Below, in pieces: positions 5,827 to 35,150 of a stretch of 64,000 nt of DNA (position 1 is its first letter; every line of letters begins with the position of its first letter). A model generated the notes under the pieces. It saw only the letters and a program-made list of their open reading frames with translations, was not told the origin of the DNA and did not search any database. The position numbers were made by a program, and so were the translations under genes. The stretch is taken from the NCBI GenBank assembly GCA_040007095.1, contig JBDTVS010000058.1, positions 15,719-79,718 of the forward strand, read 5' to 3'. The stretch comes from Acidobacteriota bacterium. Its GTDB lineage: Bacteria > Acidobacteriota > Vicinamibacteria > Vicinamibacterales > CAVVIG01.

Positions 5827-5835
5827 TCACCCCGC

Positions 5836-8800
5836 TCAGGTTCGAAGATCCAGCGTGAACGGAAACTCGCGACTCCGTACCGGCGGCAAGACGCGGACCC
5901 TGCCGGAGGTATGGGCCAACTGTGTGAACCGCGCCAGTCGGCGGCTTTCCGCCTCCAGGCTGTTCACCGGGAGTTGTTCGGAGTTTCGTCCGCCCGGATG
6001 CATCACATGATACTGGCATCCCGCGACGGATTGATCCATCCAGGTGTCCACGATGTCGAAGGTCAGCGGCACATGCACCGGAATCGTCGGATGCAAGCCC
6101 GACGGTGGATGCCAGGCGCGATACCGTAGCCCCGACACCAGCTCGCCCTCCCGGCCCGTCGGCTGCAGCGGCAGCGTGCGACCATTGCACGTGATCGCGA
6201 ACCGATCGCCGGTCATGCCGGTGACGAGCACCTGCAACCGCTCGACCGACGAGTCCACGTAGCGCGCCGTGCCGCTGGCGGTGACCTCCTCGCCAAGCAC
6301 GTGCCAGGGCTCGAGCGCCTGCCTGAGCGTCAGGTGAATCGCGCGCACGGCCAGCTCGCCGGCGATTGGGAAGCGGAACTCGAAGTGTGGTGCGAACCAC
6401 TCCGACGACATCGCGTAGCCGGCGCGCCGTACCTCCTCGAGCACGTCTTCGAAATCCAGCCACACGAAGTACGGGAGCATGAAGCGGTCGTGCAGCTGCG
6501 TACCCCAGCGCACCAGACCCGCTTCGTACGGCTCGCGCCAGAAGCGGGCGATCAACACCCGGAGCAGCAGTTGCTGCGCCAGACTCATGCGGGCATGGGG
6601 CGGCATCTCGAACGCGCGCAGCTCGAGTAGACCGCGACGGCCCGCGGTCGAATCCGGCGAGTAGAGCTTGTCGATGCAGAACTCCGCACGGTGCGTGTTC
6701 CCCGTCAAATCGACGAGCAGATGCCGGAGCGCCCGATCCACCAGCCACGCGGGGGCGGGCGTGCCGGGGGACGGCAGCTTCGAGAACGCAATCTCCAGCT
6801 CATACAAGCTGTCGTTCCGCGCTTCGTCCACGCGCGGCGCCTGGCTCGTCGGACCGAGAAACAGTCCCGAGAACAGATACGACAGGGACGGATGGTTGTG
6901 CCAGTAGCTGATCAGGCTGCGCAGCAAATCGGGACGACGGAGGAACGGGCTGTCGGAGGGGGACCAGCCGCCCAGGACGAAGTGGTTGCCGCCGCCTGTG
7001 CCCGTGTGCCGTCCGTCCACCATGAACTTCTCGGTGGTCAAACCCACCTGACGCGCCTCTTCATACAGCGTCGTCGTCTGCTCGACGAGCTGGTCCCAAT
7101 CGGCTGCGGGCGCCACGTTGACTTCGATCACGCCAGGGTCCGGTGTGATCTGAATGTGGGGCAGCCGCTGGTCGTGCGGCGGCTGGTAGCCTTCGAGCAT
7201 CACGCGCAGGCTGAGGCGGCGGGCGGTCGATTCAATCGCCGCGACCAGATCCAGATAGCCCTCGAGCGTCGAGATCGGCGGCATGAACACGTACAACACG
7301 CCCTTGCGCGGCTCGACACAGAGCGCCGATCGCACCACCCCGTGCGCCGATTCGCCGCGCGCGGGCGCGTCGGCGGACCGTGCGGTGGCAGCGTCAGCTG
7401 CGGTGGCGGTGCCAGGCGCGTGGGCGGGCAGTAGGCCATCAGCGGCGCCGTCAACGCCGCCTTCAGCACCGATGCCGGCGGCGGTGGCGGCGTCAGGCCC
7501 CACCCCGCCGCGCCGGACGTGTGACGATTGCGCTGCGGCGTCTGCTGAGTCCGCTCCGCCGTCTGAATCCGCTCCCGCGTGTGCCGAGTCGGCTTCGCCG
7601 TGGGCCGACTTTGGCCCGGCGAGGGCCGACTCCGCCTCGGAGGGTTCCGTCCCCGGGCGCTCCTGCATCAGCGGTTGGTCGTCGGCCGCCTGATCCGATC
7701 GCGGCGGCAACGGCGCTCGCAGCGCGAACGGATCGCGCTCGAAAACCTCGTCGCGATCGCCCTTGGCCGACCAGGGCAGCGAATCGAGCGGCAGCCGCAG
7801 TCCCATCGGCGAGTCGCCAGGAAAGAGATAGAGACGCTCGGCGCGTAGAAACCACGGCCCCGTGATCCAGGGCGTCGCGCCGCCAGCATGTTTCAGCGGC
7901 AGCGCGTAGCCGACGACCGCATCGAGCCCCTGCGTGAAGATGCGGCGCAACCGATCGCGTTCGAGCTCGTCGTCCAGCCGCGCGTCGAACGGATCGACGT
8001 TCGCCGGCAGGGTGCGCTCGCGCCATAAGTAATAGAAGACGTCTTCGTAGCCGGGTTGGACGTGGGCGGTGGTCAGGTGGAGCTCGGCCGCGAGCGTGGT
8101 GATGAACCGCGCGGCGTCGGCCGCATCGTGGCCTTCGGGATGTCGCTCGTCGGCAATGAGGGCCGGGTCGCGCCAGACGGGCTCGCCATCGGCGCGCCAG
8201 TAGCACCCGAGCGTCCAGCGCGGCAACTGCTCACCCGGATACCACTTGCCTTGACCGAAGTGCAGGAATCCGCCCGCGCCGTATCGCTTTTTCAAACGCC
8301 AGAGCAAATCGGCGGCGCGAAGCCGTTTGGTTGGTCCCTGCGCGGACAGGTTCCACTCGTCGGCATCGCGATCGGTCACCGACACGAACGTCGGCTCGCC
8401 GCCCTGTGTCAACCTGACGTCCTGCCGGCCCAGGTCGCTATCCACCGCTCTGCCAAGTTCGACAATCGCCTGCCACTGTGGGTCGGTGTACGGCTTGGTG
8501 ACGCGCGGCGATTCGTAGATCCGCCGGACCGACATCTCGTGATGGAATTCCACTTCGGATTCGCTGACGCCGCCGGTCACGGGCGCGGCGCCCGTCGGGT
8601 CCGGCGTGCAGGCGAGCGGCAGATGTCCCTCCCCGGCCAGCAGACCCGACGTGGGATCGAAGCCGATCCAGCCGGCGCCAGGCAGATAGGCCTCGCACCA
8701 GGCGTGCAGATCGGTGAAATCGTGATCGGTCCCGACCGGACCGTCGATCGCCTTGATGTCGGCCGTCAGCTGAATCAGGTAGCCCGACACGAAGCGCGCG

Positions 8801-9390
8801 GCGATCCCCAGGTGTCGAAGCAGCTGCACGAGCAGCCACGTCGTGTCACGGCATGAGCCGGACGCCAGGCCGAGCGTCTGCTCGACCGTCTGCACGCCGG
8901 GATCGAGCCTGATGACGTAATGAATGTCCCGCTGGAGTTGTCGATTGATGTCGACGAGCGCGTCGATCGTACGACGGGGCTGCCGGTCGATCGTGCCGAG
9001 GTACCCGGCGAAATGCGGAGTCAGCGGCTCGGTGCGCAAGTACGGCTGCAGTTCGTGCCGCTCCCATTCTTCGTAGACGAACGGGAACATTTCCGCGGCC
9101 GGCTCGAGGAAGAAATCGAACGGATCGTAGACGGCCATCTCGGCCACGACGTCGACCTCGACGCAGAACTCCTTGACCCTCTCGGGAAAGGTCAACCGCG
9201 CCACGTAGTTGCTCTGGGGGTCCTGCTGCCAGTTGATGAAATGTCCGGCAGGCGTGATGCGCTGCGAATAGGACAGGATCGGCGTGCGGCAGTGCGGGGC
9301 CGGACGCAGGCGCACGAGCTGGGGCGACAGCGTGACCAGCCGATCGTAGCGGTACCGCGTCACGTGATTGAGGGCGATGTGAATGCTCAT
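5836..9390 (-). CDS. Large transglutaminase-family / DUF2126 protein
   Basis: The ORF track starts at 9489. I prefer the ATG at 9388-9390 (MSIHIALNHVTRYRYDR), the canonical Bact_transglu_N start. Core Cys motif 'SGSCRDTTWLLVQLLRHLGIAARFVSGY', a long DUF2126-like C-terminal region, and an internal Ala/Asp/Gly low-complexity insert. Confidence 0.85.
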   Translation of the reverse strand: MSIHIALNHVTRYRYDRLVTLSPQLVRLRPAPHCRTPILSYSQRITPAGHFINWQQDPQSNYVARLTFPERVKEFCVEVDVVAEMAVYDPFDFFLEPAAEMFPFVYEEWERHELQPYLRTEPLTPHFAGYLGTIDRQPRRTIDALVDINRQLQRDIHYVIRLDPGVQTVEQTLGLASGSCRDTTWLLVQLLRHLGIAARFVSGYLIQLTADIKAIDGPVGTDHDFTDLHAWCEAYLPGAGWIGFDPTSGLLAGEGHLPLACTPDPTGAAPVTGGVSESEVEFHHEMSVRRIYESPRVTKPYTDPQWQAIVELGRAVDSDLGRQDVRLTQGGEPTFVSVTDRDADEWNLSAQGPTKRLRAADLLWRLKKRYGAGGFLHFGQGKWYPGEQLPRWTLGCYWRADGEPVWRDPALIADERHPEGHDAADAARFITTLAAELHLTTAHVQPGYEDVFYYLWRERTLPANVDPFDARLDDELERDRLRRIFTQGLDAVVGYALPLKHAGGATPWITGPWFLRAERLYLFPGDSPMGLRLPLDSLPWSAKGDRDEVFERDPFALRAPLPPRSDQAADDQPLMQERPGTEPSEAESALAGPKSAHGEADSAHAGADSDGGADSADAAAQSSHVRRGGVGPDAATAAGIGAEGGVDGAADGLLPAHAPGTATAADAATARSADAPARGESAHGVVRSALCVEPRKGVLYVFMPPISTLEGYLDLVAAIESTARRLSLRVMLEGYQPPHDQRLPHIQITPDPGVIEVNVAPAADWDQLVEQTTTLYEEARQVGLTTEKFMVDGRHTGTGGGNHFVLGGWSPSDSPFLRRPDLLRSLISYWHNHPSLSYLFSGLFLGPTSQAPRVDEARNDSLYELEIAFSKLPSPGTPAPAWLVDRALRHLLVDLTGNTHRAEFCIDKLYSPDSTAGRRGLLELRAFEMPPHARMSLAQQLLLRVLIARFWREPYEAGLVRWGTQLHDRFMLPYFVWLDFEDVLEEVRRAGYAMSSEWFAPHFEFRFPIAGELAVRAIHLTLRQALEPWHVLGEEVTASGTARYVDSSVERLQVLVTGMTGDRFAITCNGRTLPLQPTGREGELVSGLRYRAWHPPSGLHPTIPVHVPLTFDIVDTWMDQSVAGCQYHVMHPGGRNSEQLPVNSLEAESRRLARFTQLAHTSGRVRVLPPVRSREFPFTLDLRT

Positions 9391-9668
9391 AATGGGCGCG
9401 AAGTGTGAGCACCCATTATGCATTGGAGCCGACCGCGCCCGGCAGGTCGTTCGAGTTCGATGAGGGCGATCGTTGAAGCGATCGCTCAACCCATCGACAA
9501 TTATGTCGCAATCGTCACGAGCGACCCCGTCGCGCGTGCCCCCTCGTCTGACGAATAACCTGACGCGGCCGCCGCGACTGTCTGTGTGTTTCGCGGCTGG
9601 CTGACCGGCCGACTGGCCGCCTGGGGATGGATTGACATATGTATGTCTTCCGGTACATGGTGTCGAAC

Positions 9669-9916: not shown

Positions 9917-10336
9917 GTGATTCTTCCAGACGTCAACGTCCTGCTGTACGCCTTCCGCCGCGACGCCGAGCGCCACGACGAGTATCGCGCATGGCTCGAG
10001 GACGTCGTCAACGGCGAGTCCGCCTATGGCATCTCCCCTCAAGTGTTGTCGTCGGTCGTTCGCATCGCCACACACCGTCGCGTGTACGTAAATCCCAGTA
10101 CAACGCCCGAGGCTCTCGCCTTCTGCGACGCGGTCCTCCGGCCGCAACACTGCACCGTCGTCCAGCCTCGCGACCGCCATTGGAGCATCTTCACGGAGCT
10201 CTGTCGTAAGTCTCGTGCGACGGGGAACCTGGTGCAGGATGCCTGGCTCGCCGCGTTGGCCATCGAGTCGGGGTGCGAGCTCTATTTCTTGGCTGGCGGC
10301 GCCTTGCTCTTCGGCGGCACGACCTGCACTTCGTAG
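9917..10336 (+). CDS. vapC: PIN-domain VapC-like toxin with an atypical, probably replaced, C-terminus
   Basis: GTG start. 'ILPDVNVLLYAFRRD' carries the first PIN acidic residue. '..NLVQDAWLAALAIESGCEL' matches the family. The usual '..T.D.DF..' ending is absent, and the last 18 codons overlap the convergent CusF-like gene. Confidence 0.7.
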   Translation: MILPDVNVLLYAFRRDAERHDEYRAWLEDVVNGESAYGISPQVLSSVVRIATHRRVYVNPSTTPEALAFCDAVLRPQHCTVVQPRDRHWSIFTELCRKSRATGNLVQDAWLAALAIESGCELYFLAGGALLFGGTTCTS

Positions 10337-11135: not shown

Positions 11136-11735
11136 ATGCAGGTTGGCATGACCATCGCGTTCGCACTGACACTGGCAGCCGGGCAAGCGCCGGTGGATGT
11201 CCGTCAGATGTACGACTCGGGCCGATACCAGGACGTGGTGAAGGCAAACGAGCAGGCGACCGCGGACGACGACCGGACCTCCCGGCTGCGATTTCTGACG
11301 GCGCAAAGCTACGCCAAGTTGAACGACGGCGACGCAGCGCGGCGCACCTATCAGCGTCTGGCCGAGGGCGGGGCGAGCCCCTGGGCCTCGATCGGAAAAT
11401 CCGCCCTGCAGTTGATGGACAAGCAACTGGACCAGTCGCTCGAATCCGCCAACCAGGCGGTGCGCGCGGGCGACTCGCTGCCCGAGGCGCACTACCAGCG
11501 CGGGATCGTCCTGATGTCGAAAATGGAGTACGGCGAGGCGGCCAGCGCGTTCGCCAAGGCGACGCAACTCGACCCGACGTTCGCTGCCGCCAACTACTAC
11601 GGCGGCCTGGCCAACTACCGCGCGAAACGAATCGACCTGATGACGAACAACTTCGAGGCCTTCGTCAAGCTGGCACCCAACGCCCCCGAACGTCAGGAGG
11701 TCGAAGCGATTCTCCGAACGGTTCGTGGCAGGTAG
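11136..11735 (+). CDS. Secreted TPR-repeat protein
   Basis: 199 aa with a short signal-like N-terminus and repeated A/Y/L helical TPR-like units (..AHYQRGIVLMSKMEYGEAASAFAKATQLDPTFAAANYYGGLANY..). Confidence 0.7.
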   Translation: MQVGMTIAFALTLAAGQAPVDVRQMYDSGRYQDVVKANEQATADDDRTSRLRFLTAQSYAKLNDGDAARRTYQRLAEGGASPWASIGKSALQLMDKQLDQSLESANQAVRAGDSLPEAHYQRGIVLMSKMEYGEAASAFAKATQLDPTFAAANYYGGLANYRAKRIDLMTNNFEAFVKLAPNAPERQEVEAILRTVRGR

Positions 11736-11857: not shown

Positions 11858-14800
11858 CTAAAACGACTGGCCGAGTGAGAAGAACCATTGGACGCGTGAT
11901 TCGCCCGGCTTCGGGCTGACGGGTGTCGCCACGTCCGCTCGGAGCAGCGCGAACGGGGTCTGCACCCGCAGGCCGAATCCGGCGCCAGCTCGCAGACTAC
12001 CGAAGCCGAGATCGCCAATGGTTGGAAACGCGTTCCCGGCATCGAAGAAACCGACGCCCCGGAATCGCCACGCAATCGGGAACCGCAGCTCCTGGTTGAG
12101 CACCAACAGCGCATTGCCGCCCGTGGGATCGCCGAACACGTCGACGGGTCCGAGCATATCGTCCTTGAATCCGCGCACGCTGTTGCCGCCCCCCGCGTAG
12201 AACCGCTCGCTGCGAATCAAATCCTGACCGTAACCGGCGCCGAGCCCCAGTCGCCCGGACGTGGCGAAGACCAGCCGGTGTCCCAGCGTTCGATAGTAGT
12301 TCTGCTGGAAGAAGTACTTGGCGAATCGCAGGTCGGAGCCAAGCGGGCCCGCGCCGTATTCGAACGTCGACGAGAGGAGCACGCCCCGCGTCGCATCCCC
12401 CAAATCGTTCCGCGTGTCGACGAGCGCGGTCGCCGTCAGCCGTGCGATGTTCACGGTGAGATCGAACGCGAACGGGTCGTCCGGATTCGCATCAGGATCG
12501 AAGGAGTGGTTGCGCTGGAAGTTGTAGCTGTAGGCCAGTTGCAGTTTGCGGCCGGCGCGAAACCGCTGCTCCGCGGTGAACTCCGCCTTGTCGGTGATGA
12601 ACGGCTGCGTGGTCTCGGCGCCGAACCGCTCGCGCGATCGCGCAAGAAAGAGATTCGACGTCAGCGGCAGACCAAAGAATGACGGTGTGGAGAAGAACGC
12701 CCGAGCCGCTTCGAAATCTTTGGTATAGCGCAGCGCGAGACCGGTAGTGGCGGCCCGGCCGAGCACATTGCGGTAGGTCGCGTCGGCAGCCACGCCTGGC
12801 CGCAGATCCCGGGTTTCACTCGCCGGCTGCCGTTGATCGTCAACCTCGAAGCCGTAGCGAACGCGGAGCGGGGGCCATTCGTCCACGGTCACGCGTGCCT
12901 GCATTGGCTGTTCGACGACCGCCGGAGCGTCAACCGCCGGAGCATCCGCCGGAGCGTCAACCGCCGGGGCATTCGCCGGAGCATCGACTGTTGGCGCGCC
13001 AGCCGCCGGCGCCGGTTCAAGCGGGACAGCCTGTATGTCGACCTGACGAAACACGCTGGTGTCGTACAACCGCTTGCGCGCCTGCGCCCACGCCAATCGA
13101 TCGACAGGCTGGCCGACATCGAGCTTGAGCTCGCGGCTGACCAGCTCCGGGTCGGTCCGCCGCACGCCCTCGGTCGAGACGGATCGCAGGACCTGGCGCG
13201 GCCCCTGGTCGATATTGACGGTCAGGGCCACGAGCCCCGTCGCACGAGTGGCCTGACTCGTCAAGGTGACGCGCACCGCATTGAACCCGTCGGCTCGATA
13301 GGCGCTGGTCAGCGCCTGCACCGCCGTGTCGGCGGTCGCGCGAGTCCAGGCCGCCCCCGGCTCGAGCCCAAACGCCTTCCGGTCGGCCTCCGGCGTGCGC
13401 GCGCGAGCGCCCGCGACAGCAACGCTTTCGAGGTGGAAGAGCGGGCCCTCGGCAATCGTGATCGGCAGTGTCGCCGCGGCGCCATCGATCTCGGGCGCAC
13501 CAATCGTCACCGCCGCATCGAGATTCCCCTCGTTGCGATACATCGTCGTGATCGACCGCACCAGCGCCGCAGGATCGATCCAGGGCGAGGCGCCCGCGGC
13601 CGCCAACTCCTCGAGCCTGGCGCTGCTGACGCGCTCGTGGCCACTGAAGCGAAGGGTCTGGCGCGTAAAGCGGGGGCCAGGTTCGACGCGGACCACCAGA
13701 TGTTTTTCGTCGCCCGCCTTCAGCTCGATCGCGGTCGTCGCCGTCGCGAGGAGATAGCGGTCGCGAATCATCGCCGCGCGCGCCGCGTTCCTGGCTTCGT
13801 CGAGCAGAAAGCCGTCGAAGACCGCCTGGGACCAGAGACGCTCCAGTTCGCGACGAAGACTCCGGTCGTTGGCGATGCCCGAGATATCGACGAGGGTCCG
13901 GGGACCCCGATCGATGTCGTAGGTCAGATCGACCGCTGCGGCGGCCGCGGCCTCCGAGCCGGAACGGTGCGCCGAAGCGCGCGCCTCGAAATAGCCGTCC
14001 CCACGGAGCCTGGCCTCGAGCCGATCGCGATCCTGCTGCCAACGGAAGAAGTCGAACGCCTTGCCTGCGGTCAGCCGCAACTGGCGCGTGAGCTCGTCCT
14101 CGGGAAGGCCGGGCGTGCCCGTGAACCGCACCGAGGCAATCCGCGCGACGGGGCGGGAAACCGGCGGCGGACCCGTTGTGGCGCCGCCGATCGTCACATC
14201 GTGACGGAAGTCGTAGATGCGACTCTCGTTGTCCACCGAGACGAAGCGAAGCTCGATGCTCGCCTTCGGCCGATAGCCGACGATCCACGTGAGCTTGCCG
14301 CTGTCCTTGAGGCTTTGCGAGAACACCACCTCCACGTTTCGTGTGACCTGCTTGCCGAACGTGAGGCGTGAGGCCGGATCCGTCTCGCTCGCGACCAGCC
14401 CGGCGTCGAACCGGACGTCCTGGCCTCGTTCGATTCGCAGCGCATCGAGACCGAGCGCGCGGCCCGTGACGCCCAGCACTTCGCCGGAAAGATAGCCGAT
14501 CACCTGATCGCTGCCGACCGCCAGTGCGCTGGCGTTCTCTTTCTGTCCGGTGACCAGCAGCGACACGATTTCGCCCTGACTGAGGGGCGGCTCGGAGGTG
14601 AGGGTCGTTTCAAGCGTTGCGGGGGTACCCTTCAGCGCCATCGTGACGTCAACGCCCGCAATTCGCGTCAAGGCGGTGAGCGTAAGGTCGGGCTCGATTC
14701 GCGTGGGGTTGGAAAAATCGACCACGCCCGCGCCGACGATCTGGTAGACGTTGCCGCCAAGAAAAATGCGGCCGCCTTCACGGACTTCGGCCCGGCCGAG

Positions 14801-17800
14801 CAAGGTTGGCGCCGTCAGCGTGCCCCCGATCCGCACGTCCGCCGCCAGCGCCATCTTGGCGTAGTTGTTGTCCACGACGATGTCCTCGGACGTGGTGAGG
14901 CGGATGTCGAGCGTCAGCATGTCGGCAGCCGACGGAGCATCGAGCTGAACGCCGGCGGGCGACAACTGCAACGCCTGCAGAAGGCCCGAAGCCAGCGAGA
15001 TCGGCTCGCGATACGAACCGCCGAGCACGGACGCATCGCCCGAGAGCGAGAATGCGCCACGGTCCACGGCCAGGCTCAGTTCAAAATCCGCCTCGGTCTT
15101 GAGCGCTTCCGGGATCGCCAGCGCGAGACTGCGACCGCTAATCGCCAACCGCCCGCTCGTGAGCCGCAGACCCGCATGTTTCAGCGTGCCGGCGACCGAG
15201 ACCGTCCCACCGTTGGCCTGGCCCTCGACGCCGGACACCTTGAGCTCGTCCCGGGACAACACGAGACTGCCGGTGAGGTCGGTAATCGCGAGACGGGGCG
15301 ACGCGTTGCGCCATTCGACGGCTTGCAGATCGATGCGGCCGTCGAGCTGCGGATCAGCGATGGCGCCCGACGCGCGGGCGCTGACGACCGCTCGGCCTTG
15401 CGTGGCGACGCCGGGGAGAAACGCGCCAAGCGCGCGCAGATCGATGGTCCCATCGGCTGACACGTCCAGTGTGGGAGGGCCGTCGAACTGGCCGTCGAAC
15501 TGGACGCCGCCGCTCAACGAAAACCGATTGCCGGCGCCGCCCCAGTTCCACTCGACAATCTCGGCACGCCCGTTCGCCACGTCGACTCGCGTGGGCTGCT
15601 GCTGCTCAAACGGCACGCCGGCCACTCCCAGCGCGACATGATCCAGGACGAGTTGTCCGTGGACGGACGACAGCACCGGGCGATCCGCGTCGAGCGTCAA
15701 GGTGCCCGACACGAGGCCCGTTACCTGCGACAGTGTGTCAGCCGGCACGAACGGGGCCAGCACGGCCGGTGTGATCGAGTCGATCCGCGCCCTCAAGCGT
15801 CCGACTGTTTGCTGTGCCGCTGGCGCGCCCGTGAGCCAGCCTGGAACCTGCGGCGCGACGAGCGCGATCGGCACGTCGCCGGTGGCCGAAACGGTGGCGC
15901 CCTGCCAGGCCGCATCGAGACGGGAGACGGAAACGACGCCGGCGTCGTATGCCGCGCGCAGGTTCAGCGACATCGCCTCTGACCTACCGTCGATCACCAC
16001 CCGGCCTTCGTCCAGGCTCGCGACGGCGCTGAGTGCGGGACGATCGAGCGAGCCCGGTGCGCGCACGTCGACATGCACGGGCCCGGCGAGCTGCACGCGA
16101 CCGATCGAGCTCCCGGCTGGAAGAAAAGCCGACGCCACCTGCTCGAGATCGCGAGCGTCGCCATCGAGCGACACGGCGAGCGTGCCCGGCCGGTCGGCCC
16201 CGAGCTCTCCGGCGGCGTGCAGCTCACTGCCGCCAACGTTGAGGGTGAGTTCCGTGATACCGAGCGTCTTGCCGTCGTAGCTCGCCTGCCCGGGCCGCGT
16301 CGCACGCACGGGCACGTCGCCGACCGCCCCATCCAGGCGTTGAAGATCCAGGGTGGTGCGCAGGTGGGCGAGATCCTGTTGGCTGCCTTGCGCGTGCACC
16401 GTGAACGAAGCGGTGCCGGTCACGGGTGCATCCAAGGCGATGCGCATTCGCGATGCCAGGGACGCCAGGTCCGCGTCTTTCGTCTGGGTCTCAATCGCCA
16501 GGCTACCGCCGGCGTCAAGGCCCACGTTGGCAGTGCCGGTTGTAAAGAGATCGGCGAGATCGAAGCCGGCGTCCAGCCGATGATCCTTCAGGGCGAGGCG
16601 CGCTGTGACGCGGCCCAGGTCGCGATCGAGGACGTGCGTTTCGTCGAGCGCCAACTCGCCGGTGCCCTCGGGATCCTCGATGGTGCCCCGCGCGCGCCAC
16701 TCGCCGCTCAGCCTCGCGGTGATCGGCGCGAGGATCTCGTCAGGCCGGGCGCCAGGAACGGGAACGACCGTAAAATGGTCGGCCGACAAGAGCGCCGCGA
16801 GCTGGCCCGTGCGCAGGTCGTAGTCTCCGTTGCCTGTCAGAGTGCCACCGGCTTGCGTCAACCGCAGCGATTGAATGCGCGCCATCTGCGGGGTGAGCGT
16901 GAATGAGGCTTCGAGGCGATCGGCCGATTGTCCCGCGATCGACATCGCGTCGCCGACGAGCCGGCCATCCAGGGCGGGAACCTTTGCGGTGCCGGACACC
17001 GTGGCGGAGAGCGTGAGCCCGCCCGATGGCCGCAGAACCGCCGGGACAATGCCGTTCAACTGACCGAGCTCGGGCAGCTCGGCTTCGACCTGGCCGGCGA
17101 TCGTCGGGTTCTCGATGCGGCCCGAGAGCGTCAGTTCGGCGCGGCCGCCGCCGCTCACGCTCGGCGGGGACGAAGTGGTGGCGAGACCGACATCGTGCAG
17201 CGTCTGCCAGATCTCGGGCCACGAGTCCGCAGTCGCGACGAGGTTCGCGTCGATCGTCGATGCGGACGTCGATGCGGACGTCGATGCGGACGTCGATACG
17301 GACGGCGACGCCGGTGTCAGCCGCCCGGCCGCGTACCCTTCGAGGTGCACCGCATCTTCGAGCCAGTGGTCGAACGAGGCTTGCCACTCTCCCTCGCTCA
17401 GCTCGGCGTTCGCCGTGCCGTTCACGCCAAGCACGCGTACGTCGCCGGAGTTCGATCGGGTCGTCGATCGGGTCGTAGCCTCGATTTCTCCCGAAAGTCC
17501 GTCGATCGTCCACGCGGTCCACGTCGCCGTGGCTTGGCCATCAAGCAGCGCGTTCACCTTCACCGGCGTCTTCGTATCGAGCGCCTTGAGGAGGCTGGTG
17601 ACGTCCATGTCACGCCACTCGACGCGGGCTCGAGCCAGCTCCGTTCCCGGGGACGAAGAGGACAGCGAGACACGGCCACTCCCGGTCGCCGTGCCACCGA
17701 GCAAGCGAAGGTTGATGGATCCGAGCTCGACGGCGGTCCGGTCGATCTGTGCGGACGCGTCAGCGGCGACATTCGTCAAGCCCTGCCAAGCGAGGTCCTG

Positions 17801-18685
17801 CGATCCAACAGTCAGATCGGCGCGCGGTTCGTTGAGGCTGCCGGTGGCGTGTGCCTTGAAGGTCAGGTGACCGGATGGATTCGGGCCAGGCCCCAACCAG
17901 GCCGCGAGGCGGTTGAGATCCACGCTGCCGTTGGCGTCGATCGCCATCGGCAATCCCACGGAGAGCACGCCGACGGAACCTGCGGCCGTCACCGTGGCTT
18001 CGGGCGTGGACAGCTGCAACGAATCGGTCGACAGCGACGAACCGTTCCACCCGATTCGGGCAGTGAGCGCGAGCTCCGTCGTGCGGCCGCGAGCCCGAAG
18101 CGTGGCCGGACGACCGAGGGTCAGCGTGCCGGTCGCACCTCGCGCGGTCGGGAGCAAGTTGAGCGACAGGCGATCTGCCTCGCCACTCATCCCAAGCACT
18201 TCGTCCTGCCAGACGATGGACACGTTCGAGAGCGCCAGGGCACCAATCGGAAATGGCGAGGGACGCTCTGTGCCGCTCGCCGGCTTCGACTCGGGAAGGT
18301 TGGTCGAGCCATCCTGCCGCCGCAGAATGGCGATGCGGATACCGTCGCCGGACAGCGAGGAGACGCCCAGGCGGCCGCGAAGAATCGACCGCGGCAACGT
18401 CACGTCGAGCCGCGCGGCCTCGAGGAATGGATGCTGCGTATCCGTGGTCGCCGACGCCACCAACTGCTCGACGTGGACGCTCAGCGTCGCGAGGTTGTAC
18501 GAGAGGGCGGCCGTCCGTATCGTGATCCCGCGCGCCAGCAATTGCGACGCCGCCCATTGACCGACGCGGGCCTGGACCCACGGAAGGTGCGCGCCCAGCA
18601 CGATGGCTGCGAGGCACAGGCCCACTACGAGGCCTGCCAGGCCAACCCAGAGCGCGATTGATCGAAGCCTGTGGCGAGACGTCAT
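11858..18685 (-). CDS. Fusion of a TamB/AsmA-like translocation-assembly protein (N-terminal ~1500 aa) to a POTRA plus Omp85/TamA-BamA-like beta-barrel (C-terminal ~760 aa)
   Basis: Uninterrupted 2275-aa ORF. N-terminal signal-anchor, then long beta-rich repeats. DUF490-like end (..LSQGEIVSLLVTGQ...LTFGKQVTRNVEVVFSQSL...WIVGYRP..). POTRA-like units follow (..IASVRFTGTPGLPEDELTRQL..). Omp85 barrel ending in ..VQWFFSLGQSF. Confidence 0.85.
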   Translation of the reverse strand: MTSRHRLRSIALWVGLAGLVVGLCLAAIVLGAHLPWVQARVGQWAASQLLARGITIRTAALSYNLATLSVHVEQLVASATTDTQHPFLEAARLDVTLPRSILRGRLGVSSLSGDGIRIAILRRQDGSTNLPESKPASGTERPSPFPIGALALSNVSIVWQDEVLGMSGEADRLSLNLLPTARGATGTLTLGRPATLRARGRTTELALTARIGWNGSSLSTDSLQLSTPEATVTAAGSVGVLSVGLPMAIDANGSVDLNRLAAWLGPGPNPSGHLTFKAHATGSLNEPRADLTVGSQDLAWQGLTNVAADASAQIDRTAVELGSINLRLLGGTATGSGRVSLSSSSPGTELARARVEWRDMDVTSLLKALDTKTPVKVNALLDGQATATWTAWTIDGLSGEIEATTRSTTRSNSGDVRVLGVNGTANAELSEGEWQASFDHWLEDAVHLEGYAAGRLTPASPSVSTSASTSASTSASTIDANLVATADSWPEIWQTLHDVGLATTSSPPSVSGGGRAELTLSGRIENPTIAGQVEAELPELGQLNGIVPAVLRPSGGLTLSATVSGTAKVPALDGRLVGDAMSIAGQSADRLEASFTLTPQMARIQSLRLTQAGGTLTGNGDYDLRTGQLAALLSADHFTVVPVPGARPDEILAPITARLSGEWRARGTIEDPEGTGELALDETHVLDRDLGRVTARLALKDHRLDAGFDLADLFTTGTANVGLDAGGSLAIETQTKDADLASLASRMRIALDAPVTGTASFTVHAQGSQQDLAHLRTTLDLQRLDGAVGDVPVRATRPGQASYDGKTLGITELTLNVGGSELHAAGELGADRPGTLAVSLDGDARDLEQVASAFLPAGSSIGRVQLAGPVHVDVRAPGSLDRPALSAVASLDEGRVVIDGRSEAMSLNLRAAYDAGVVSVSRLDAAWQGATVSATGDVPIALVAPQVPGWLTGAPAAQQTVGRLRARIDSITPAVLAPFVPADTLSQVTGLVSGTLTLDADRPVLSSVHGQLVLDHVALGVAGVPFEQQQPTRVDVANGRAEIVEWNWGGAGNRFSLSGGVQFDGQFDGPPTLDVSADGTIDLRALGAFLPGVATQGRAVVSARASGAIADPQLDGRIDLQAVEWRNASPRLAITDLTGSLVLSRDELKVSGVEGQANGGTVSVAGTLKHAGLRLTSGRLAISGRSLALAIPEALKTEADFELSLAVDRGAFSLSGDASVLGGSYREPISLASGLLQALQLSPAGVQLDAPSAADMLTLDIRLTTSEDIVVDNNYAKMALAADVRIGGTLTAPTLLGRAEVREGGRIFLGGNVYQIVGAGVVDFSNPTRIEPDLTLTALTRIAGVDVTMALKGTPATLETTLTSEPPLSQGEIVSLLVTGQKENASALAVGSDQVIGYLSGEVLGVTGRALGLDALRIERGQDVRFDAGLVASETDPASRLTFGKQVTRNVEVVFSQSLKDSGKLTWIVGYRPKASIELRFVSVDNESRIYDFRHDVTIGGATTGPPPVSRPVARIASVRFTGTPGLPEDELTRQLRLTAGKAFDFFRWQQDRDRLEARLRGDGYFEARASAHRSGSEAAAAAAVDLTYDIDRGPRTLVDISGIANDRSLRRELERLWSQAVFDGFLLDEARNAARAAMIRDRYLLATATTAIELKAGDEKHLVVRVEPGPRFTRQTLRFSGHERVSSARLEELAAAGASPWIDPAALVRSITTMYRNEGNLDAAVTIGAPEIDGAAATLPITIAEGPLFHLESVAVAGARARTPEADRKAFGLEPGAAWTRATADTAVQALTSAYRADGFNAVRVTLTSQATRATGLVALTVNIDQGPRQVLRSVSTEGVRRTDPELVSRELKLDVGQPVDRLAWAQARKRLYDTSVFRQVDIQAVPLEPAPAAGAPTVDAPANAPAVDAPADAPAVDAPAVVEQPMQARVTVDEWPPLRVRYGFEVDDQRQPASETRDLRPGVAADATYRNVLGRAATTGLALRYTKDFEAARAFFSTPSFFGLPLTSNLFLARSRERFGAETTQPFITDKAEFTAEQRFRAGRKLQLAYSYNFQRNHSFDPDANPDDPFAFDLTVNIARLTATALVDTRNDLGDATRGVLLSSTFEYGAGPLGSDLRFAKYFFQQNYYRTLGHRLVFATSGRLGLGAGYGQDLIRSERFYAGGGNSVRGFKDDMLGPVDVFGDPTGGNALLVLNQELRFPIAWRFRGVGFFDAGNAFPTIGDLGFGSLRAGAGFGLRVQTPFALLRADVATPVSPKPGESRVQWFFSLGQSF
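12917..12987. repeat. In-frame coding tandem repeat (VDAPA(N/D)APA units) inside the Omp85-like part
   Basis: ccgccggagcgtcaac/cgccggagcatc units are reiterated. They translate on the minus strand to APANAPAVDAPADAPAVDAPAV. Confidence 0.7.
17256..17303. repeat. In-frame 12-bp tandem repeat x4 (STSA units) inside the TamB-like part
   Basis: gtcgatgcggac x3 plus gtcgatacggac. It translates on the minus strand to STSASTSASTSAST. Confidence 0.8.
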
Positions 18686-19314: not shown

Positions 19315-19683
19315 TCACTGATGGCGAGACGAGTCGGCCACGAGCATCGACAGGACGGTGCTGACGAAGCTCACGACCAGCGCGCCCCAGAAAGCGGCCC
19401 AGAAACCGCTGACGTGGAAGCCCAACCCGAGGCCTTCCGACAGCGAGCTGGTCAGCCACAGCATCAGGCCGTTGACGACCAGCGCGAAGATGCCGAGCGT
19501 GAGGATGATGAGCGGAAACGTCAACACCTTCGCGACGGGCCTGATGAAGGCATTGACCACGCCGAAGACGGCCGCCACCCCAAGAAACGGAAGCCAACCG
19601 CCGGCAAACGTGACACCTGGCACCACGTTCGTCGCGACCCACAGCGCCGCGGCGTTCACGAGCAATCGAACCACAAATGGCAT
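19315..19683 (-). CDS. Phage-holin-family / DUF360 (YvlD-like) small membrane protein
   Basis: 122 aa with four predicted TM helices. 'LLVNAAALWVA...VPG....GGW..FLGVAAVFGVVNAFIRP' matches the DUF360 pattern. Confidence 0.7.
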   Translation of the reverse strand: MPFVVRLLVNAAALWVATNVVPGVTFAGGWLPFLGVAAVFGVVNAFIRPVAKVLTFPLIILTLGIFALVVNGLMLWLTSSLSEGLGLGFHVSGFWAAFWGALVVSFVSTVLSMLVADSSRHQ

Positions 19684-19833: not shown

Positions 19834-20739
19834 TTACGGCCGCGGACGATCGAGCGCGGTCCGATCCCAGCCGGCCAGCGTCGCCGCCACGTCGTAGCTG
19901 CTGCCGACAAACGTCAGGATGGCCTGCTCGGGCGAGGCGGCGGTCCTGACGGCATCGTACGGCAGGATGAACTCGCCGAGCTCGCGGTGATAGTACGCGC
20001 CCTGCGGCCCAACCGATGCCTCTTTGAAGCCCGGCGGCTCCGGAACGGCGTACGAATAGAACACCGGCTCGGGAAGCGGCCCGCCCCCCGGCCAGAATCC
20101 GTGGCTGATGACCTCGTGCGAATACGCCTCGCGCATGAACGCGGGGCCTTCGCGCGGCGGCGCCGGCTTGCCGGAGAAACGTGTCACCGCCAGATCGAAG
20201 GCGCCCCAGAAGAAATGGACCGGGCTGCTCTTCCCCACAAACGCGCACTGCGAGAGGGTGAACACGCGCGCGACCTGCGAGAAAATCCGCCAGCAGCGGT
20301 TCGCGTACACCGGATCGTATGCCGCGTGGGTCCTGTCCTGGTCGAATCGGATCGGCGAGGCGACCTCTACCGGCACCGGCCAGATCTTCACCGGCAGGCC
20401 CATCGCGGAGAGCGTCGACATCACCGCGGCGTAGAAATCGGCGACCGTCTGCGGCCGTAGCGCCAGCATCCGCGACTCGCCATCCGACGTCCGGATGACG
20501 AGCTGATGTGCGATGAAATCGAACTGGATGGTGAAGGAACGATGGCCGTGCGAAAGGGTCCGCGTGGACAACCCGGTGGGCGTGATTTGCAGCGCAATCG
20601 CCCAGGAATGATTGAGCGGCGGCGCCAGCGCGAGCGCCACCTTGCCGACCACCTGCGTCCACATGTGCACGGTCTCGCAGGTGTCCTGCCATGCCGCATA
20701 GGGCAGCGCCGGCCAGAGCTCTTCGGTCACACTCGTCAT
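19834..20739 (-). CDS. DUF5996 family protein
   Basis: 301 aa. The N-terminus 'WPALPYAAWQDTCETVHMWTQVVGKVALALAP' matches my memory of the DUF5996 signature. Confidence 0.7.
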   Translation of the reverse strand: MTSVTEELWPALPYAAWQDTCETVHMWTQVVGKVALALAPPLNHSWAIALQITPTGLSTRTLSHGHRSFTIQFDFIAHQLVIRTSDGESRMLALRPQTVADFYAAVMSTLSAMGLPVKIWPVPVEVASPIRFDQDRTHAAYDPVYANRCWRIFSQVARVFTLSQCAFVGKSSPVHFFWGAFDLAVTRFSGKPAPPREGPAFMREAYSHEVISHGFWPGGGPLPEPVFYSYAVPEPPGFKEASVGPQGAYYHRELGEFILPYDAVRTAASPEQAILTFVGSSYDVAATLAGWDRTALDRPRP

Positions 20740-20788
20740 TGGAATCGTCCTTTAGTCCTGCGCCCCGGTGTTTAGCCAGACGTTGGTC

Positions 20789-24518: not shown

Positions 24519-24699
24519 TCGAGCGGGATTGGAGACAACGCTGCGCCGCGCAGCAGGGCGATCCGGTATCAGCGGAAGCCCACAATGCACGCGCGCGCGC
24601 GTTGCACTTGTGGCGTACATGAGCCCAGGGCCACGGGCCGGGAGATCGCAGTTGTCCGTACACCACCCGTACGCTACACTCGTGGTCGAGGAGGCTGCC

Positions 24700-24981
24700 G
24701 TGCCGACATCTTCGACCACTCGCGACGACCGGATTGAGCTGCGTGCGTCCCGCGAGGAGAAGCGCATCCTCGCGGCAGCCGCCGCGTACCAACGCCTCGA
24801 TCTCACCACCTTCGTCATGCGGACGGCCCTGCCGGTCGCCGAGGAGGTCGTGGCGCGGCACGAACGCATCCGGCTGAGCGCCCGCGACAGCGGCCGCGTG
24901 CTGGATCTGCTGGAGCATCCGCCGAAACCGACGGCGGCGCTGCGTGCCGCCGCCAAGCGGCTGCGACGGCACCGCGCATGA
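24700..24981 (+). CDS. DUF1778 (TacA-like) antitoxin
   Basis: GTG start preceded by a gaggagg Shine-Dalgarno sequence. 'RIELRASREEKRILAAAAAYQRLDLTTFVMRTALPVAEEVV' is the DUF1778 pattern. Overlaps the GNAT toxin gene by 4 nt. Confidence 0.8.
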   Translation: MPTSSTTRDDRIELRASREEKRILAAAAAYQRLDLTTFVMRTALPVAEEVVARHERIRLSARDSGRVLDLLEHPPKPTAALRAAAKRLRRHRA

Positions 24982-28564: not shown

Positions 28565-28572
28565 GGCCGCAC

Positions 28573-34788: not shown

Positions 34789-34933
34789 CGGCGAACCGCT
34801 CCGGAGGGGACCTAATCAAATCGTCTCCGCCGACAGGGATGGGCTCGCGTCGGGAAGGCGCGACCGAGAGGTGGTCGTGAAAAGGCCTGGATACCGGTTA
34901 CAATCCGCCCGCTCCCGCATTCGGGATGTGACA

Positions 34934-35116: not shown

Positions 35117-35150
35117 GCGCGGGACGGATCGAACGTCATGGGGACACAGC

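What the first reader, a model, noticed from the sequence alone, without database searches (positions are those of the whole stretch)
11858..18685. TamB-like and Omp85 (TamA/BamA-like) proteins fused into a single 2275-aa polypeptide
In characterised systems the TAM inner-membrane-anchored TamB and the outer-membrane Omp85 partner TamA are separate proteins. They are usually encoded in the order tamA then tamB. Here one uninterrupted ORF encodes, in order: a signal-anchor, a very long TamB/AsmA-like beta-rich region ending in a DUF490-like segment, POTRA-like repeats, and a C-terminal 16-strand-type barrel ending in an aromatic residue (..SLGQSF). The junction is near nt 14150-14200 (..RIYDFRHDVTIGGATTGPPPVSRPVARIASVRFTG..). 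The order TamB then Omp85 is the reverse of the usual operon order, so simple read-through of a tamA stop cannot explain it. A covalent fusion would hard-wire a trans-envelope bridge.
Basis: partly seen in the sequence, partly recalled or inferred. Interest (0 to 1): 0.7.

Follow-up and report, generated by a model that had tools for sequence, protein, structure and literature searches.

The report
Single-chain TamB–Omp85 envelope bridge
One 2,275-residue protein of a soil Acidobacteriota bacterium joins two partners that are separate proteins in all studied bacteria: the inner-membrane-anchored lipid bridge TamB and a BamA-like outer-membrane barrel. The fusion is real and is conserved across much of the phylum. 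I found no description of it in the papers I could search.

Summary
Window 11858..18685 (-) is one intact ORF. In order it has:
- about 1,330 residues of continuous beta-sheet, as in TamB/AsmA-like proteins;
- a complete TamB terminal domain (Pfam TamB, E 2e-30), with helices and six beta-strands;
- a 14-residue linker;
- five POTRA domains;
- a 16-strand Omp85 barrel (Pfam Omp85, E 6e-46) ending in Phe.

It is not an assembly artefact. All 150 best 50%-identity cluster representatives match across the junction, and the complete ones are about 1,900-2,400 aa. Named members come from Vicinamibacterales, Luteitalea, Blastocatellia, Thermoanaerobaculia and Aminicenantes. The linker length is conserved (median 14 residues). 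The Omp85 half has no signal peptide of its own.

The nearest unfused relatives of the Omp85 half sit in tamB->omp85 operons. These have the same gene order as the fusion and a 4-nt overlap, so a simple route to the fusion exists.

The most likely reading is a single-chain TAM-like machine whose TamB end docks in cis into its own barrel. In-cis docking, absence of cleavage and function are inferred, not shown. I could not test whether the same genomes also keep a housekeeping BamA. No searched paper describes such a fusion, and databases name it after one half only.

Verdict: a new variant of a known kind, of moderate to high interest.

The parts
11858..18685 (-). Whole fused gene, 2275 codons plus stop
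   Evidence: ORF list and translation. Pfam TamB, POTRA and Omp85 all match in one frame. The same architecture occurs in 53 aligned homologues. All of the best 150 representatives of 50%-identity clusters match across the junction.
18587..18664 (-). N-terminal signal-anchor helix, aa about 8-33. It is the only hydrophobic segment of the protein.
   Evidence: A Kyte-Doolittle scan finds a single segment, aa 7-39. AF2 predicts a helix at aa 5-32. Weak AsmA/DUF748/YhdP N-terminal matches cover aa 8-177.
14591..18586 (-). Long all-beta periplasmic body, TamB/AsmA-like 'taco', aa 34-1365
   Evidence: AF2 of aa 1-1200 has mean pLDDT 86.3: one short helix, then about 70 consecutive strands. AF2 of aa 1101-2275 continues the sheet to aa about 1365. 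BLASTP to E. coli TamB aligns aa 1160-1419 with TamB 926-1194 at 23% identity.
14246..15223 (-). Pfam TamB (DUF490) match, aa 1155-1480
   Evidence: PF04357, E 2.3e-30, 106.5 bits against a cut-off of 22.4, profile positions 5-354 of 381.
14186..14590 (-). TamB terminal domain, aa 1366-1500: three helices plus six beta-strands. The last strand is aa 1488-1499 (SRIYDFRHDVTI).
   Evidence: AF2 secondary structure. The segment aligns colinearly with the very C-terminus of E. coli TamB (...LLYQFEF*). The motif Y-x-F-R-H-D...GG is conserved in most of the 53 homologues, though not in the most divergent ones. In E. coli this domain has two helices and six strands, and the last strand pairs with TamA beta1 (PMC12800296).
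14144..14185 (-). Fusion linker, aa 1501-1514 (GATTGPPPVSRPVA)
   Evidence: In alignment A1 the linker length has median 14 and range 10-30, and its composition is rich in A/R/P/G. It has no hydrophobic stretch or signal-peptide-like segment.
13022..14143 (-). Five POTRA domains, aa 1515-1888
   Evidence: AF2 shows five beta-alpha-alpha-beta-beta units. Pfam matches POTRA and POTRA_2. Foldseek aligns about 790 residues to full-length BamA chains, best 9hg7_A at E 4e-38.
12914..13021 (-). Low-complexity A/P/V/D-rich spacer between POTRA5 and the barrel, aa 1889-1924. It holds an in-frame tandem repeat.
   Evidence: AF2 pLDDT is below 50 at model residues 795-819. TRF finds a 27-nt period array at 12919-12982.
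11861..12913 (-). 16-strand Omp85 barrel, aa 1925-2275. It has the NSVRGF loop-6 motif (aa 2168-2173) and a C-terminal Phe.
   Evidence: PF01103, E 5.9e-46, aa 1973-2275. AF2 predicts the barrel strands. R2171, G2172 and F2275 are nearly invariant. BLASTP to the E. coli TamA barrel gives 31% identity, E 2e-18.
11136..11735 (+). Conserved neighbour: a 199-aa secreted TPR protein. It is convergent and lies 122 nt beyond the stop of the fusion gene. It is a possible accessory factor.
   Evidence: Pfam TPR_1, E 1.7e-7. Homologues occupy the same convergent position after the fusion in L001, L002, L003, L005 and L012, but not in L013.

Best explanation
The gene encodes a natural single-chain version of the TamB-Omp85 (TAM-like) trans-envelope machine.

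**Anatomy, N- to C-terminus**
- An uncleaved N-terminal helix anchors the chain in the inner membrane.
- About 1,330 residues of open beta-sheet cross the periplasm. This is the AsmA/TamB 'taco', which in E. coli carries phospholipids.
- The TamB terminal domain (helices plus six strands) follows.
- A 14-residue linker leads into five POTRA domains and a 16-strand BamA-like barrel in the outer membrane.

**Proposed mechanism**
- In E. coli and in the Borrelia models, the last TamB strand pairs with beta1 of the Omp85 barrel. Its C-terminal end should then face the periplasm.
- I propose that here the TamB end docks in cis into its own barrel.
- The short linker would then return to POTRA1, so the POTRA arm closes into a loop under the barrel.
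- The result is a 1:1, non-dissociable bridge that feeds phospholipids to the outer membrane and may also help insert outer-membrane proteins.
- The Omp85 half has no signal peptide. It must reach the periplasm as part of the TamB chain.

**Origin.** The fused Omp85 most likely descends from a TamB-operon BamA paralogue, not from the housekeeping BamA.

**Shown:** the ORF, the domains, conservation and distribution, the missing internal signal peptide, and unfused relatives with the same gene order.

**Inferred:** membrane topology, in-cis docking, absence of cleavage, and function.
For: **The fusion is real**
- The ORF is intact and all domains lie in one frame.
- 53 full-length homologues at 21-74% identity share the architecture, and both halves diverge in parallel.
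- All of the best 150 50%-identity cluster representatives match across the junction. Full-length ones are about 1,900-2,400 aa and the shorter ones look like fragments.

**Distribution**
- Named members are Acidobacteriota, Vicinamibacteraceae/Vicinamibacterales, Luteitalea, Blastocatellia, Thermoanaerobaculia and Ca. Aminicenantes.
- Two Acidobacteriota MAGs carry it.

**Junction**
- The full TamB C-terminal strands are kept. They align colinearly with the E. coli TamB C-terminus.
- The linker length is conserved.
- There is only one hydrophobic segment in the protein, and none near the junction.

**Structure**
- AF2 models have pLDDT 79.8 with pTM 0.64, and pLDDT 86.3. They show a TM helix, a long beta body, helices plus six terminal strands, five POTRAs and a barrel.
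- Foldseek matches full-length BamA at E 4e-38.

**Literature**
- E. coli TamAB cryo-EM shows the last TamB strand paired with TamA beta1, strands 3-5 in the barrel lumen, and lipid-like densities in the taco cavity (PMC12800296).
- A preprint argues that the hybrid barrel is stable and that DUF490 is an Omp85-docking domain (PMC13119328).
- Modelling of the Borrelia TamB-BamA complex (five POTRAs) suggests the same arrangement (PMC13382580).

**Origin**
- The nearest unfused Omp85 relatives are in tamB->omp85 operons.
- A crude NJ tree groups fused Omp85 with TamB-operon Omp85. They stand apart from E. coli BamA, E. coli TamA and a PVC-group BamA in 76 of 100 bootstraps.
- The window has no skp-lpxD context.
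Against: - No model coordinates could be read. Pairing of strand 1488-1499 with barrel beta1, and the closed POTRA loop, are inferences from homologous structures.
- There is no expression, localisation or processing data. Cleavage in the linker cannot be excluded.
- Function (lipid transfer or OMP insertion) is carried over from E. coli TAM, where it is still debated.
- The tree contains no housekeeping BamA from Acidobacteriota, so the paralogue assignment is provisional.
- Fused proteins were not monophyletic in that tree (2 of 100 bootstraps).
- The N-terminal AsmA-like Pfam matches are below their curated cut-offs.
- Foldseek of the N-terminal model gave only low-TM hits to ApoB100 and LptD.
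Confidence: 0.72

Rival explanations
1. The fused barrel is the organism's housekeeping, possibly only, BamA. The essential BAM core would then be permanently tethered to the inner membrane through TamB. This would be a covalent form of the Borrelia BamA-TamB complex.
For: - It has five POTRA domains, as canonical BamA does.
- Its best structural matches are full-length BamA chains.
- BamA TIGR03303 is the top NCBIfam hit.
- In spirochaetes the BamA that lies in the tamB-bamA operon is the only BamA (PMC4494059; PMC13382580).
- No other Omp85 gene lies in the 64-kb window.
Against: - TIGR03303 gives 225 bits, below the 297 cut-off. A bamA-skp-lpxD BamA scores 496, and TamB-operon Omp85s score 248-388.
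- The closest unfused relatives are TamB-operon Omp85s.
- The gene context lacks skp and lpxD.
- Heinz et al. 2015 report that the Acidobacteria sampled then have a canonical BamA plus a second, TamB-linked BamA.
- A barrel whose seam is permanently occupied in cis would be an awkward general insertase.
Confidence: 0.17
2. The fusion is a precursor. TamB serves as the export vehicle for a barrel that has no signal peptide. The chain is then cut in the linker, giving an ordinary two-protein TAM with guaranteed 1:1 stoichiometry.
For: - The linker is short, rich in A/R/P/G, and poorly conserved in sequence.
- The Omp85 half lacks a signal peptide.
- Unfused relatives function as two proteins.
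Against: - The linker has no recognisable cleavage motif or hydrophobic region.
- The linker length is tightly conserved (13-15 residues in most members). That fits a geometric constraint better than a disposable spacer.
- The fused form has lost two POTRAs relative to the unfused partners. This suggests the architecture has adapted to the tether.
- There is no direct data either way.
Confidence: 0.12
3. The fusion is an artefact: an assembly or sequencing error has merged adjacent tamB and omp85 genes.
For: Some related loci show frame breaks, one of them near the junction. These are L002 and L005/L006.
Against: - Those loci come from assemblies with many scattered frame breaks along the whole gene.
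- The cluster of P0104 contains an intact 2257-aa member.
- L003 carries the whole gene in its DNA at 75-90% identity.
- More than 150 independent clusters have the junction intact.
- The Omp85 half never has its own signal peptide, whereas truly separate partners do.
Confidence: 0.01

Closest known systems
E. coli TAM (TamA + TamB)
   Same: - The TamB part has an N-terminal signal anchor, a long beta 'taco' and a DUF490 end with helices plus six strands.
- The Omp85 part has POTRA domains and a 16-strand barrel.
- The TamB terminal strands align colinearly with the end of E. coli TamB.
   Different: - It is one polypeptide instead of two.
- The gene order is reversed (TamB part first).
- It has five POTRAs instead of three.
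- The barrel scores far below the TamA equivalog (87 against 625 bits) and the TamB part far below the TamB equivalog (55 against 825 bits).
- The TamB part is about 1,500 aa, against 1,259 in E. coli.
- The TamB C-terminus is not free.
Borrelia burgdorferi BamA-TamB (hybrid BAM-TAM) complex
   Same: - TamB partners with a five-POTRA BamA-type protein.
- The gene order is tamB then bamA.
- The TamB terminal segment is a helix followed by six strands, modelled as completing the BamA barrel (PMC4494059; PMC13382580).
   Different: - In Borrelia there are two separate proteins, and the BamA is the cell's only, housekeeping BamA with its own signal peptide.
- Here the two are covalently joined. 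The barrel more likely derives from a TamB-linked paralogue.
Unfused tamB->omp85 operons in metagenomic relatives (L008, L009), and the BamA2-x-TamB operon type (L004; Acidobacteria of Heinz et al. 2015)
   Same: - They are the closest unfused relatives of the Omp85 half.
- L008 and L009 have the same gene order as the fusion, with a 4-nt overlap.
- The TamB end is similar...DFRVRHAF* against ...YDFRHDVTIGG.
   Different: - Their Omp85 has its own signal peptide and about two more N-terminal POTRAs (927-1094 aa against 776 aa).
- L004 has the opposite order, with an extra 318-aa gene in between.
Chloroplast TIC236-TOC75
   Same: It is a TamB homologue anchored in the inner envelope membrane and bound to an Omp85 protein in the outer envelope. 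Named from the literature (PMC10345924).
   Different: It consists of separate proteins in a eukaryotic organelle and has been assigned to protein import. It was not compared by sequence here.
Long MlaD of Veillonella parvula (an Mla 'transenvelope bridge')
   Same: It is another lipid-trafficking system proposed to span the envelope (PMC10665443, title and abstract). My recollection, not checked in the text, is that a single MlaD chain carries an outer-membrane barrel.
   Different: It belongs to the unrelated MCE/MlaD fold, not the AsmA-like or Omp85 families. It is an analogy only.
N-terminally extended Omp85 proteins (PlpD patatin-Omp85; WD40-like Omp85)
   Same: They are Omp85 barrels that carry an extra N-terminal module (PMC4104836; PMC11116518).
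   Different: None of those modules is TamB/DUF490. The 2014 survey of Omp85 architectures mentions neither DUF490 nor a TamB fusion.

Membership tests
TamB / AsmA-like (Pfam PF04357, DUF490) | C-terminal DUF490 domain scoring above the Pfam gathering threshold | tested here: met
   106.5 bits against 22.4, aa 1155-1480.
TamB / AsmA-like | N-terminal uncleaved signal-anchor helix followed by a long continuous beta-sheet body | tested here: met
   There is a single hydrophobic segment at aa 7-39. AF2 predicts a helix at aa 5-32 and then about 70 strands, with pLDDT 86. That the helix stays uncleaved is inferred.
TamB / AsmA-like | Terminal segment of helices plus six beta-strands that ends the protein (free C-terminus) | tested here: not met
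   The helices and six strands are present. The chain does not end there. It continues through a 14-aa linker into POTRA1.
TamB orthologue (NCBIfam NF047952, equivalog) | Score above the curated cut-off of 825 bits | tested here: not met
   55.4 bits.
TamB / AsmA-like | Hydrophobic groove that carries phospholipids | not testable with these tools
   Model coordinates are not readable here, and there is no biochemistry.
Omp85 superfamily (PF01103) | 16-strand barrel scoring above the gathering threshold, preceded by at least one POTRA domain | tested here: met
   157.9 bits against 24. POTRA scores 85.4 bits. AF2 shows five POTRAs and a barrel.
Omp85 superfamily | Conserved loop-6 (V/I)RG(F/Y) motif and a C-terminal aromatic residue | tested here: met
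   NSVRGF lies at aa 2168-2173. R2171, G2172 and F2275 are nearly invariant in 53 sequences.
BamA (NCBIfam TIGR03303, equivalog) | Score above the curated cut-off of 297.15 bits | tested here: not met
   217.5 bits for the whole protein and 225.1 for the Omp85 half alone. A bamA-skp-lpxD BamA scores 496.
BamA (housekeeping) | Five POTRA domains | tested here: met
   AF2 secondary structure shows five beta-alpha-alpha-beta-beta units. Foldseek aligns about 790 residues to BamA chains.
BamA (housekeeping) | Own cleavable signal peptide, and the usual gene context next to skp/lpxD | tested here: not met
   There is no hydrophobic stretch after the junction. The neighbours are DUF5996, a holin-like gene, a TPR gene and a PIN gene.
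TamA (NCBIfam NF047950, equivalog) | Score above 625 bits, and three POTRA domains | tested here: not met
   87-93 bits. It has five POTRAs.
TAM complex (two-partner module) | TamB terminal strand pairs with beta1 of the Omp85 barrel (hybrid barrel) | not testable with these tools
   This is inferred from PMC12800296 and PMC13382580.
TAM complex (two-partner module) | Two separately encoded and separately exported subunits | tested here: not met
   It is a single ORF with a single export signal.

The most novel reading that the evidence does not exclude
In these Acidobacteriota the fused barrel is the only BamA-type insertase. The essential outer-membrane protein assembly core would then be built as one uncleaved chain anchored in both membranes, and all OMP insertion would take place at a barrel permanently joined to a lipid bridge. 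This would mean that lipid supply and protein insertion are physically coupled at single sites. It would also raise the question of what first inserts the barrel of the insertase itself.
Probability: 0.12. Interest if true: 0.85.

Novelty: new variant of a known kind. Interest (0 to 1): 0.6.

Why it matters
**A natural test of a current dispute**
- TamB and its Omp85 partner are at the centre of two questions: how phospholipids reach the outer membrane, and whether the TamB-barrel 'hybrid' is a stable working state or a transient one. Two recent structural studies disagree on the second point (PMC12800296 and PMC13119328).
- A natural covalent fusion with a length-conserved 14-residue tether is conserved across several classes of a major soil phylum.
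- It argues that a permanent 1:1 TamB-Omp85 assembly is compatible with function.
- It fixes where the TamB C-terminus must lie relative to POTRA1.
- It offers a ready-made single-chain construct for structural work, and a design for E. coli TamB-linker-TamA fusions.

**A biogenesis puzzle**
- How does a chain of about 240 kDa, held in the inner membrane by its N-terminus, get its C-terminal barrel folded into the outer membrane?

**An annotation problem**
- Current annotation names these proteins after one half only: 'TamB domain-containing', 'BamA' or 'BamA/TamA family'.
- Frame-shifted long-read assemblies split them into pieces.
- Surveys of TAM/BAM distribution in Acidobacteriota can therefore miscount both components.

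Tried and rejected
1. **The search for related loci with broad alignments A1 and A3.** Both failed because no stretch was conserved enough. A systematic taxonomic census was therefore not possible.
2. **P0018, a 'TamB-only' protein at 88% identity.** It looked like an unfused close relative. Its contig L003 carries the whole fused gene broken by four scattered frame changes, so it is an assembly artefact.
3. **P0104, an 'Omp85-only' 763-aa protein with a frame change inside the linker (L005/L006).** I considered it as a natural split or a programmed frameshift. I rejected both for two reasons:
   - the product would start at POTRA1 without a signal peptide;
   - the same 90% cluster holds an intact 2257-aa member.
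4. **The last protein search, used to find a housekeeping BamA of Acidobacteriota.** I started from P0118 (dnaB-bamA-skp-lpxD context). It turned out to belong to the PVC group (Kiritimatiellae, Lentisphaerae), so it says nothing about these genomes.
5. **Foldseek of the N-terminal model against the PDB.** It gave only low-TM matches (0.08-0.2) to ApoB100 and LptD. This is uninformative beyond 'long open beta-sheet'.
6. **Other scans.**
   - Rfam found nothing in the window.
   - The promoter and terminator scan found nothing above chance.
   - No second Omp85, skp, lpxD or tamA gene lies in the window.
7. **Literature.** Six phrase variants for a TamB-BamA or TamB-TamA fusion returned 0 papers. 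These papers do not mention a natural fusion:
   - the 2015 TAM evolution paper;
   - the 2014 Omp85 survey;
   - the 2023 AsmA review;
   - the 2024 TAM review;
   - the 2026 structure papers.

   Subscription-only papers are not covered.
Full report
**1. Is it there?**

Yes. Window 11858..18685 on the minus strand is one ORF of 2275 codons with an ATG start and no internal stop. About 630 bp of non-coding DNA lies upstream. The junction peptide is at aa 1489-1523, and the protein ends in ...SLGQSF.

Pfam gives these matches, all in one frame:
- a weak AsmA/DUF748/YhdP-type N-terminus at aa 8-177, below the curated cut-offs;
- TamB/DUF490 at aa 1155-1480 (106.5 bits, cut-off 22.4);
- POTRA (85.4 bits) and POTRA_2;
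- Omp85 at aa 1973-2275 (157.9 bits, cut-off 24).

NCBIfam ranks BamA first (217 bits, below its 297 cut-off). TamA (87), TamL (73) and TamB (55) all fall far below their cut-offs. A hydropathy scan finds exactly one membrane-helix-like segment, aa 7-39, and nothing resembling a signal peptide near the junction.

**2. Anatomy**

Two AlphaFold2 runs used 53-sequence alignments.
- Residues 1-1200 (mean pLDDT 86.3) form a helix at aa 5-32, a second short helix, and then about 70 consecutive beta-strands.
- Residues 1101-2275 (mean pLDDT 79.8, pTM 0.64) continue the sheet to about aa 1365. After that come:
  - three low-confidence helices and six strands, the last at aa 1488-1499;
  - a coil at aa 1500-1514;
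  - five beta-alpha-alpha-beta-beta POTRA units at aa 1515-1888;
  - a disordered A/P/V/D-rich spacer;
  - a barrel at aa 1925-2275.

Foldseek aligns about 790 residues of this model to full-length BamA chains (9hg7_A, E 4e-38). TamA chains come later (8us1, E 7e-30). phmmer against PDB sequences agrees.

BLASTP aligns aa 1160-1419 with E. coli TamB 926-1194. A local alignment then continues colinearly to the last residues of E. coli TamB...LLYQFEF* against ...RIYDFRHDVTIGG. The fused protein therefore keeps the whole TamB terminal domain.

In E. coli that domain is two helices plus six strands. Its last strand (1251-1259) pairs with TamA beta1, and strands 3-5 sit in the barrel lumen (PMC12800296). 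Modelling of the Borrelia TamB-BamA complex suggests the same arrangement (PMC13382580).

**3. Artefact or real?**

Read mapping was not possible, so I used comparative evidence.
- The word-indexed protein search returned 72 hits. About 53 of them are 1,970-2,350 aa with TamB + POTRA + Omp85, at 74% down to 21% identity.
- The exhaustive HMMER search of 1.84 billion cluster representatives, with aa 1101-2275 as query, listed 150 best hits. Every one matches across the junction, and rank 150 still has E 1e-157. More than 150 clusters at 50% identity therefore carry the fusion.
- In the alignment the TamB terminal strands are conserved: RLTFGK..VVFSQSL..TWI.Y.P..ELR.VS.D..R.Y.FRHD..IGG.
- The linker is poorly conserved in sequence but tightly conserved in length. 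The median is 14 residues, most members have 13-15, and the range is 10-30. It is rich in A, R, P and G.
- The two halves lose identity in parallel across the family.

Three apparent counter-examples dissolved.
- P0018 ('TamB only', 88% identical) comes from contig L003. That contig holds the whole gene with four scattered frame changes.
- The two MAG loci L001 and L002 have similar scattered breaks.
- P0104 ('Omp85 only') has a frame change inside the linker. It would start at POTRA1 with no signal peptide, and its own 90% cluster includes an intact 2257-aa protein.

**4. Who has it?**

Every source name I could recover points to Acidobacteriota. The names are:
- Acidobacteria/Acidobacteriota bacterium;
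- Vicinamibacteraceae and Vicinamibacterales;
- Luteitalea sp.;
- Blastocatellia;
- Thermoanaerobaculia;
- Candidatus Aminicenantes.

One partial sequence is labelled Dehalococcoidia. I suspect mis-binning, because I know that class as bacteria without an outer membrane. I did not check this.

The window's closest relatives are an ENA contig at about 88% identity (L003) and a JGI protein at 74%. L003 shares the flanking DUF5996, holin-like, TPR and DUF2126 genes, so it is the same lineage.

**5. Where did it come from?**

The window has no tamA, bamA, skp or lpxD. Searching with the Omp85 half alone found mostly fragments of fusions. The closest truly separate proteins were P0114 and P0115.
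- Both lie immediately after a tamB gene, overlapping it by 4 nt. That is the same order as in the fusion (L008, L009).
- Their TamB ends ...YALDFRVRHAF*, close to the fused ...YDFRHD.
- Their Omp85 has its own signal peptide and about 180 extra N-terminal residues, roughly two POTRAs.

A third type (L004) has the order Omp85(1094 aa)-318 aa-TamB. This matches the BamA-TamB operon that Heinz et al. 2015 described for Acidobacteria.

A BamA in a dnaB-bamA-skp-lpxD context (P0118) is much more distant, at E 2e-17.

On the BamA equivalog model (cut-off 297 bits) the scores are:

| Protein | Bits |
|---|---|
| Fused half | 225 |
| L009 | 248 |
| L004 | 303 |
| L008 | 388 |
| P0118 | 496 |

A crude NJ tree of the last 560 residues groups fused and TamB-operon Omp85s. 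It sets them apart from E. coli BamA, E. coli TamA and the PVC-group BamA in 76 of 100 bootstraps. It does not recover the fusions as one clade (2 of 100).

I read this as follows. The fused barrel descends from a TamB-linked BamA paralogue. The fusion needed loss of the tamB stop, of the signal peptide and of two POTRAs. Whether it happened once is unresolved.

**6. How it most likely works**

The chain is exported through its only signal, the N-terminal anchor, which stays in the inner membrane as in TamB. The beta-taco spans the periplasm.

By homology, the terminal six-strand domain docks at the seam of the barrel. Here the only partner encoded on the same chain is its own barrel. I infer the geometry from strand directions:
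- beta1 of an Omp85 barrel rises from the periplasm;
- the TamB last strand should pair with it antiparallel, as a substrate's final strand does with BamA beta1;
- so the end of that TamB strand faces the periplasm.

A 14-residue linker, at most about 45-50 Å long, must then reach POTRA1. The five-POTRA arm would have to curl back under the barrel. This resembles the POTRA ring seen in BAM (PMC13382580).

The product would be a non-dissociable bridge with a fixed 1:1 ratio. It most plausibly delivers phospholipids to the outer membrane (PMC12800296, PMC13119328) and may also assist OMP insertion. The topology, the in-cis docking, the absence of cleavage and the function are all inferences. I could not read model coordinates.

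**7. Rivals**

- (a) The barrel is the housekeeping or only BamA, probability about 0.17. Five POTRAs, the BamA-like fold and the spirochaete precedent favour this. The profile scores, the nearest relatives, the gene context and the Heinz et al. report of two BamAs in Acidobacteria speak against it.
- (b) The fusion is a precursor that is cut in the linker, probability about 0.12. Nothing excludes it. The conserved linker length and the loss of two POTRAs fit a retained tether better.
- (c) It is an artefact, probability about 0.01.

**8. Known or new?**

The sequences are in public databases under names that describe one half: 'TamB domain-containing protein', 'BamA/TamA family outer membrane protein', 'BamA' or 'YaeT'. 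JGI sometimes gives both names.

In the searchable literature I found no description of a natural TamB-Omp85 fusion.
- Six phrase variants returned nothing.
- The TAM evolution paper, the Omp85 architecture survey, two reviews and three 2026 structure papers do not mention one.

The library lacks most subscription papers, so absence is not proof. I file it as a new variant of a known kind: a single-chain TAM-like or BAM-TamB-like module.

**9. Side observations**

- A 199-aa secreted TPR protein gene (11136..11735, +) lies convergently right after the fusion gene in the window. The same is true in five of six related loci, while the other flanking genes differ. It is a candidate partner.
- Two in-frame tandem repeats lie inside the gene.

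Noticed in passing
window 11136..11735 (+); L001 16672-17292, L002 about 16930-17534, L003 13705-14302, L005 10437-11099, L012 13033-13650: A roughly 200-aa secreted TPR protein has a signal peptide and no lipobox cysteine. Its gene lies convergently just downstream of the fusion gene in the window and in five of six related loci, at 39-87% identity. Other neighbours are not conserved. It may be an accessory factor with a BamD-like role.
   Followed up: partly
window 12919-12982 and 17255-17308 (inside the fusion gene): There are two in-frame tandem repeats. One has a 27-nt period and encodes the A/P/V/D-rich spacer between POTRA5 and the barrel. The other is a 12-nt unit repeated 4.5 times that encodes (STSA)n at aa about 460-478. 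Both lie in low-confidence or loop regions and are likely to vary in length.
   Followed up: no
L001, L002, L003, L005/L006 (relatives of the fusion gene): Some assemblies break this 6.8-kb GC-rich gene into 3-8 pieces through scattered frame changes. I took these to be long-read assemblies, judging by their contig names. Gene callers then report 'TamB-only' and 'BamA-only' proteins (P0018, P0104 and others). Database names describe one half only. Censuses of TamB and BamA in Acidobacteriota would be distorted.
   Followed up: yes
L008 18-3229; L009 2784-9961 (also 9961-10614); L004 1764-10299: Unfused relatives fall into two operon types. One is tamB->omp85 with a 4-nt overlap, followed by a 217-227-aa gene that has no Pfam match. 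The other is omp85-(318-aa gene with a faint SurA_N-like match)-tamB. The small conserved third genes are uncharacterised.
   Followed up: partly
tree (P0052 / L013 lineage, Blastocatellia): The Blastocatellia-type fusion (21-24% identity) grouped with unfused TamB-operon Omp85s rather than with the other fusions. It also lacks the TPR neighbour. This could be an independent fusion or only poor resolution.
   Followed up: no
window 3241..9489 (-) and 2142..3041 (-): This is a cluster of genes: DUF2126 amidoligase with transglutaminase domains (1217 aa), a circularly permuted ATP-grasp protein with an Alpha-E domain (861 aa), and a second transglutaminase-like protein. The same genes recur near the fusion in L003, and partly in L012.
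   Followed up: no
window 8..2064 (-): A BlaR1-type M56 peptidase is fused to CarboxypepD_reg and TonB_C domains (542 aa). Next to it is a BlaI/Penicillinase_R repressor (143 aa). This domain combination looked unusual to me for a BlaR-type sensor. I did not check how common it is.
   Followed up: no
window 9917..10336 (+); 19315..19683 (-); 19834..20739 (-): A PIN-domain protein lies downstream of the fusion gene. A PF04020 'Phage_holin_4_2' small membrane protein and a DUF5996 protein lie directly upstream. The upstream pair is conserved only in the 88%-identical relative L003. A PF04020 gene also lies 3 kb from the fusion in L005.
   Followed up: partly
window about 20500-37600: G+C drops from 0.65-0.69 inside the fusion gene to 0.58-0.60 beyond about 20.5 kb. 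Several long ORFs at 22-37 kb have no Pfam match: 22347..25415, 25561..26787, 31742..33772, 33796..34788, 34898..35989 and 36254..37591. Which of them are real genes was not worked out.
   Followed up: no
P0100: A partial fusion protein at 44% identity is labelled Dehalococcoidia bacterium in NCBI. I know that class as bacteria without an outer membrane, so contig mis-binning seems likely. I did not check this.
   Followed up: no
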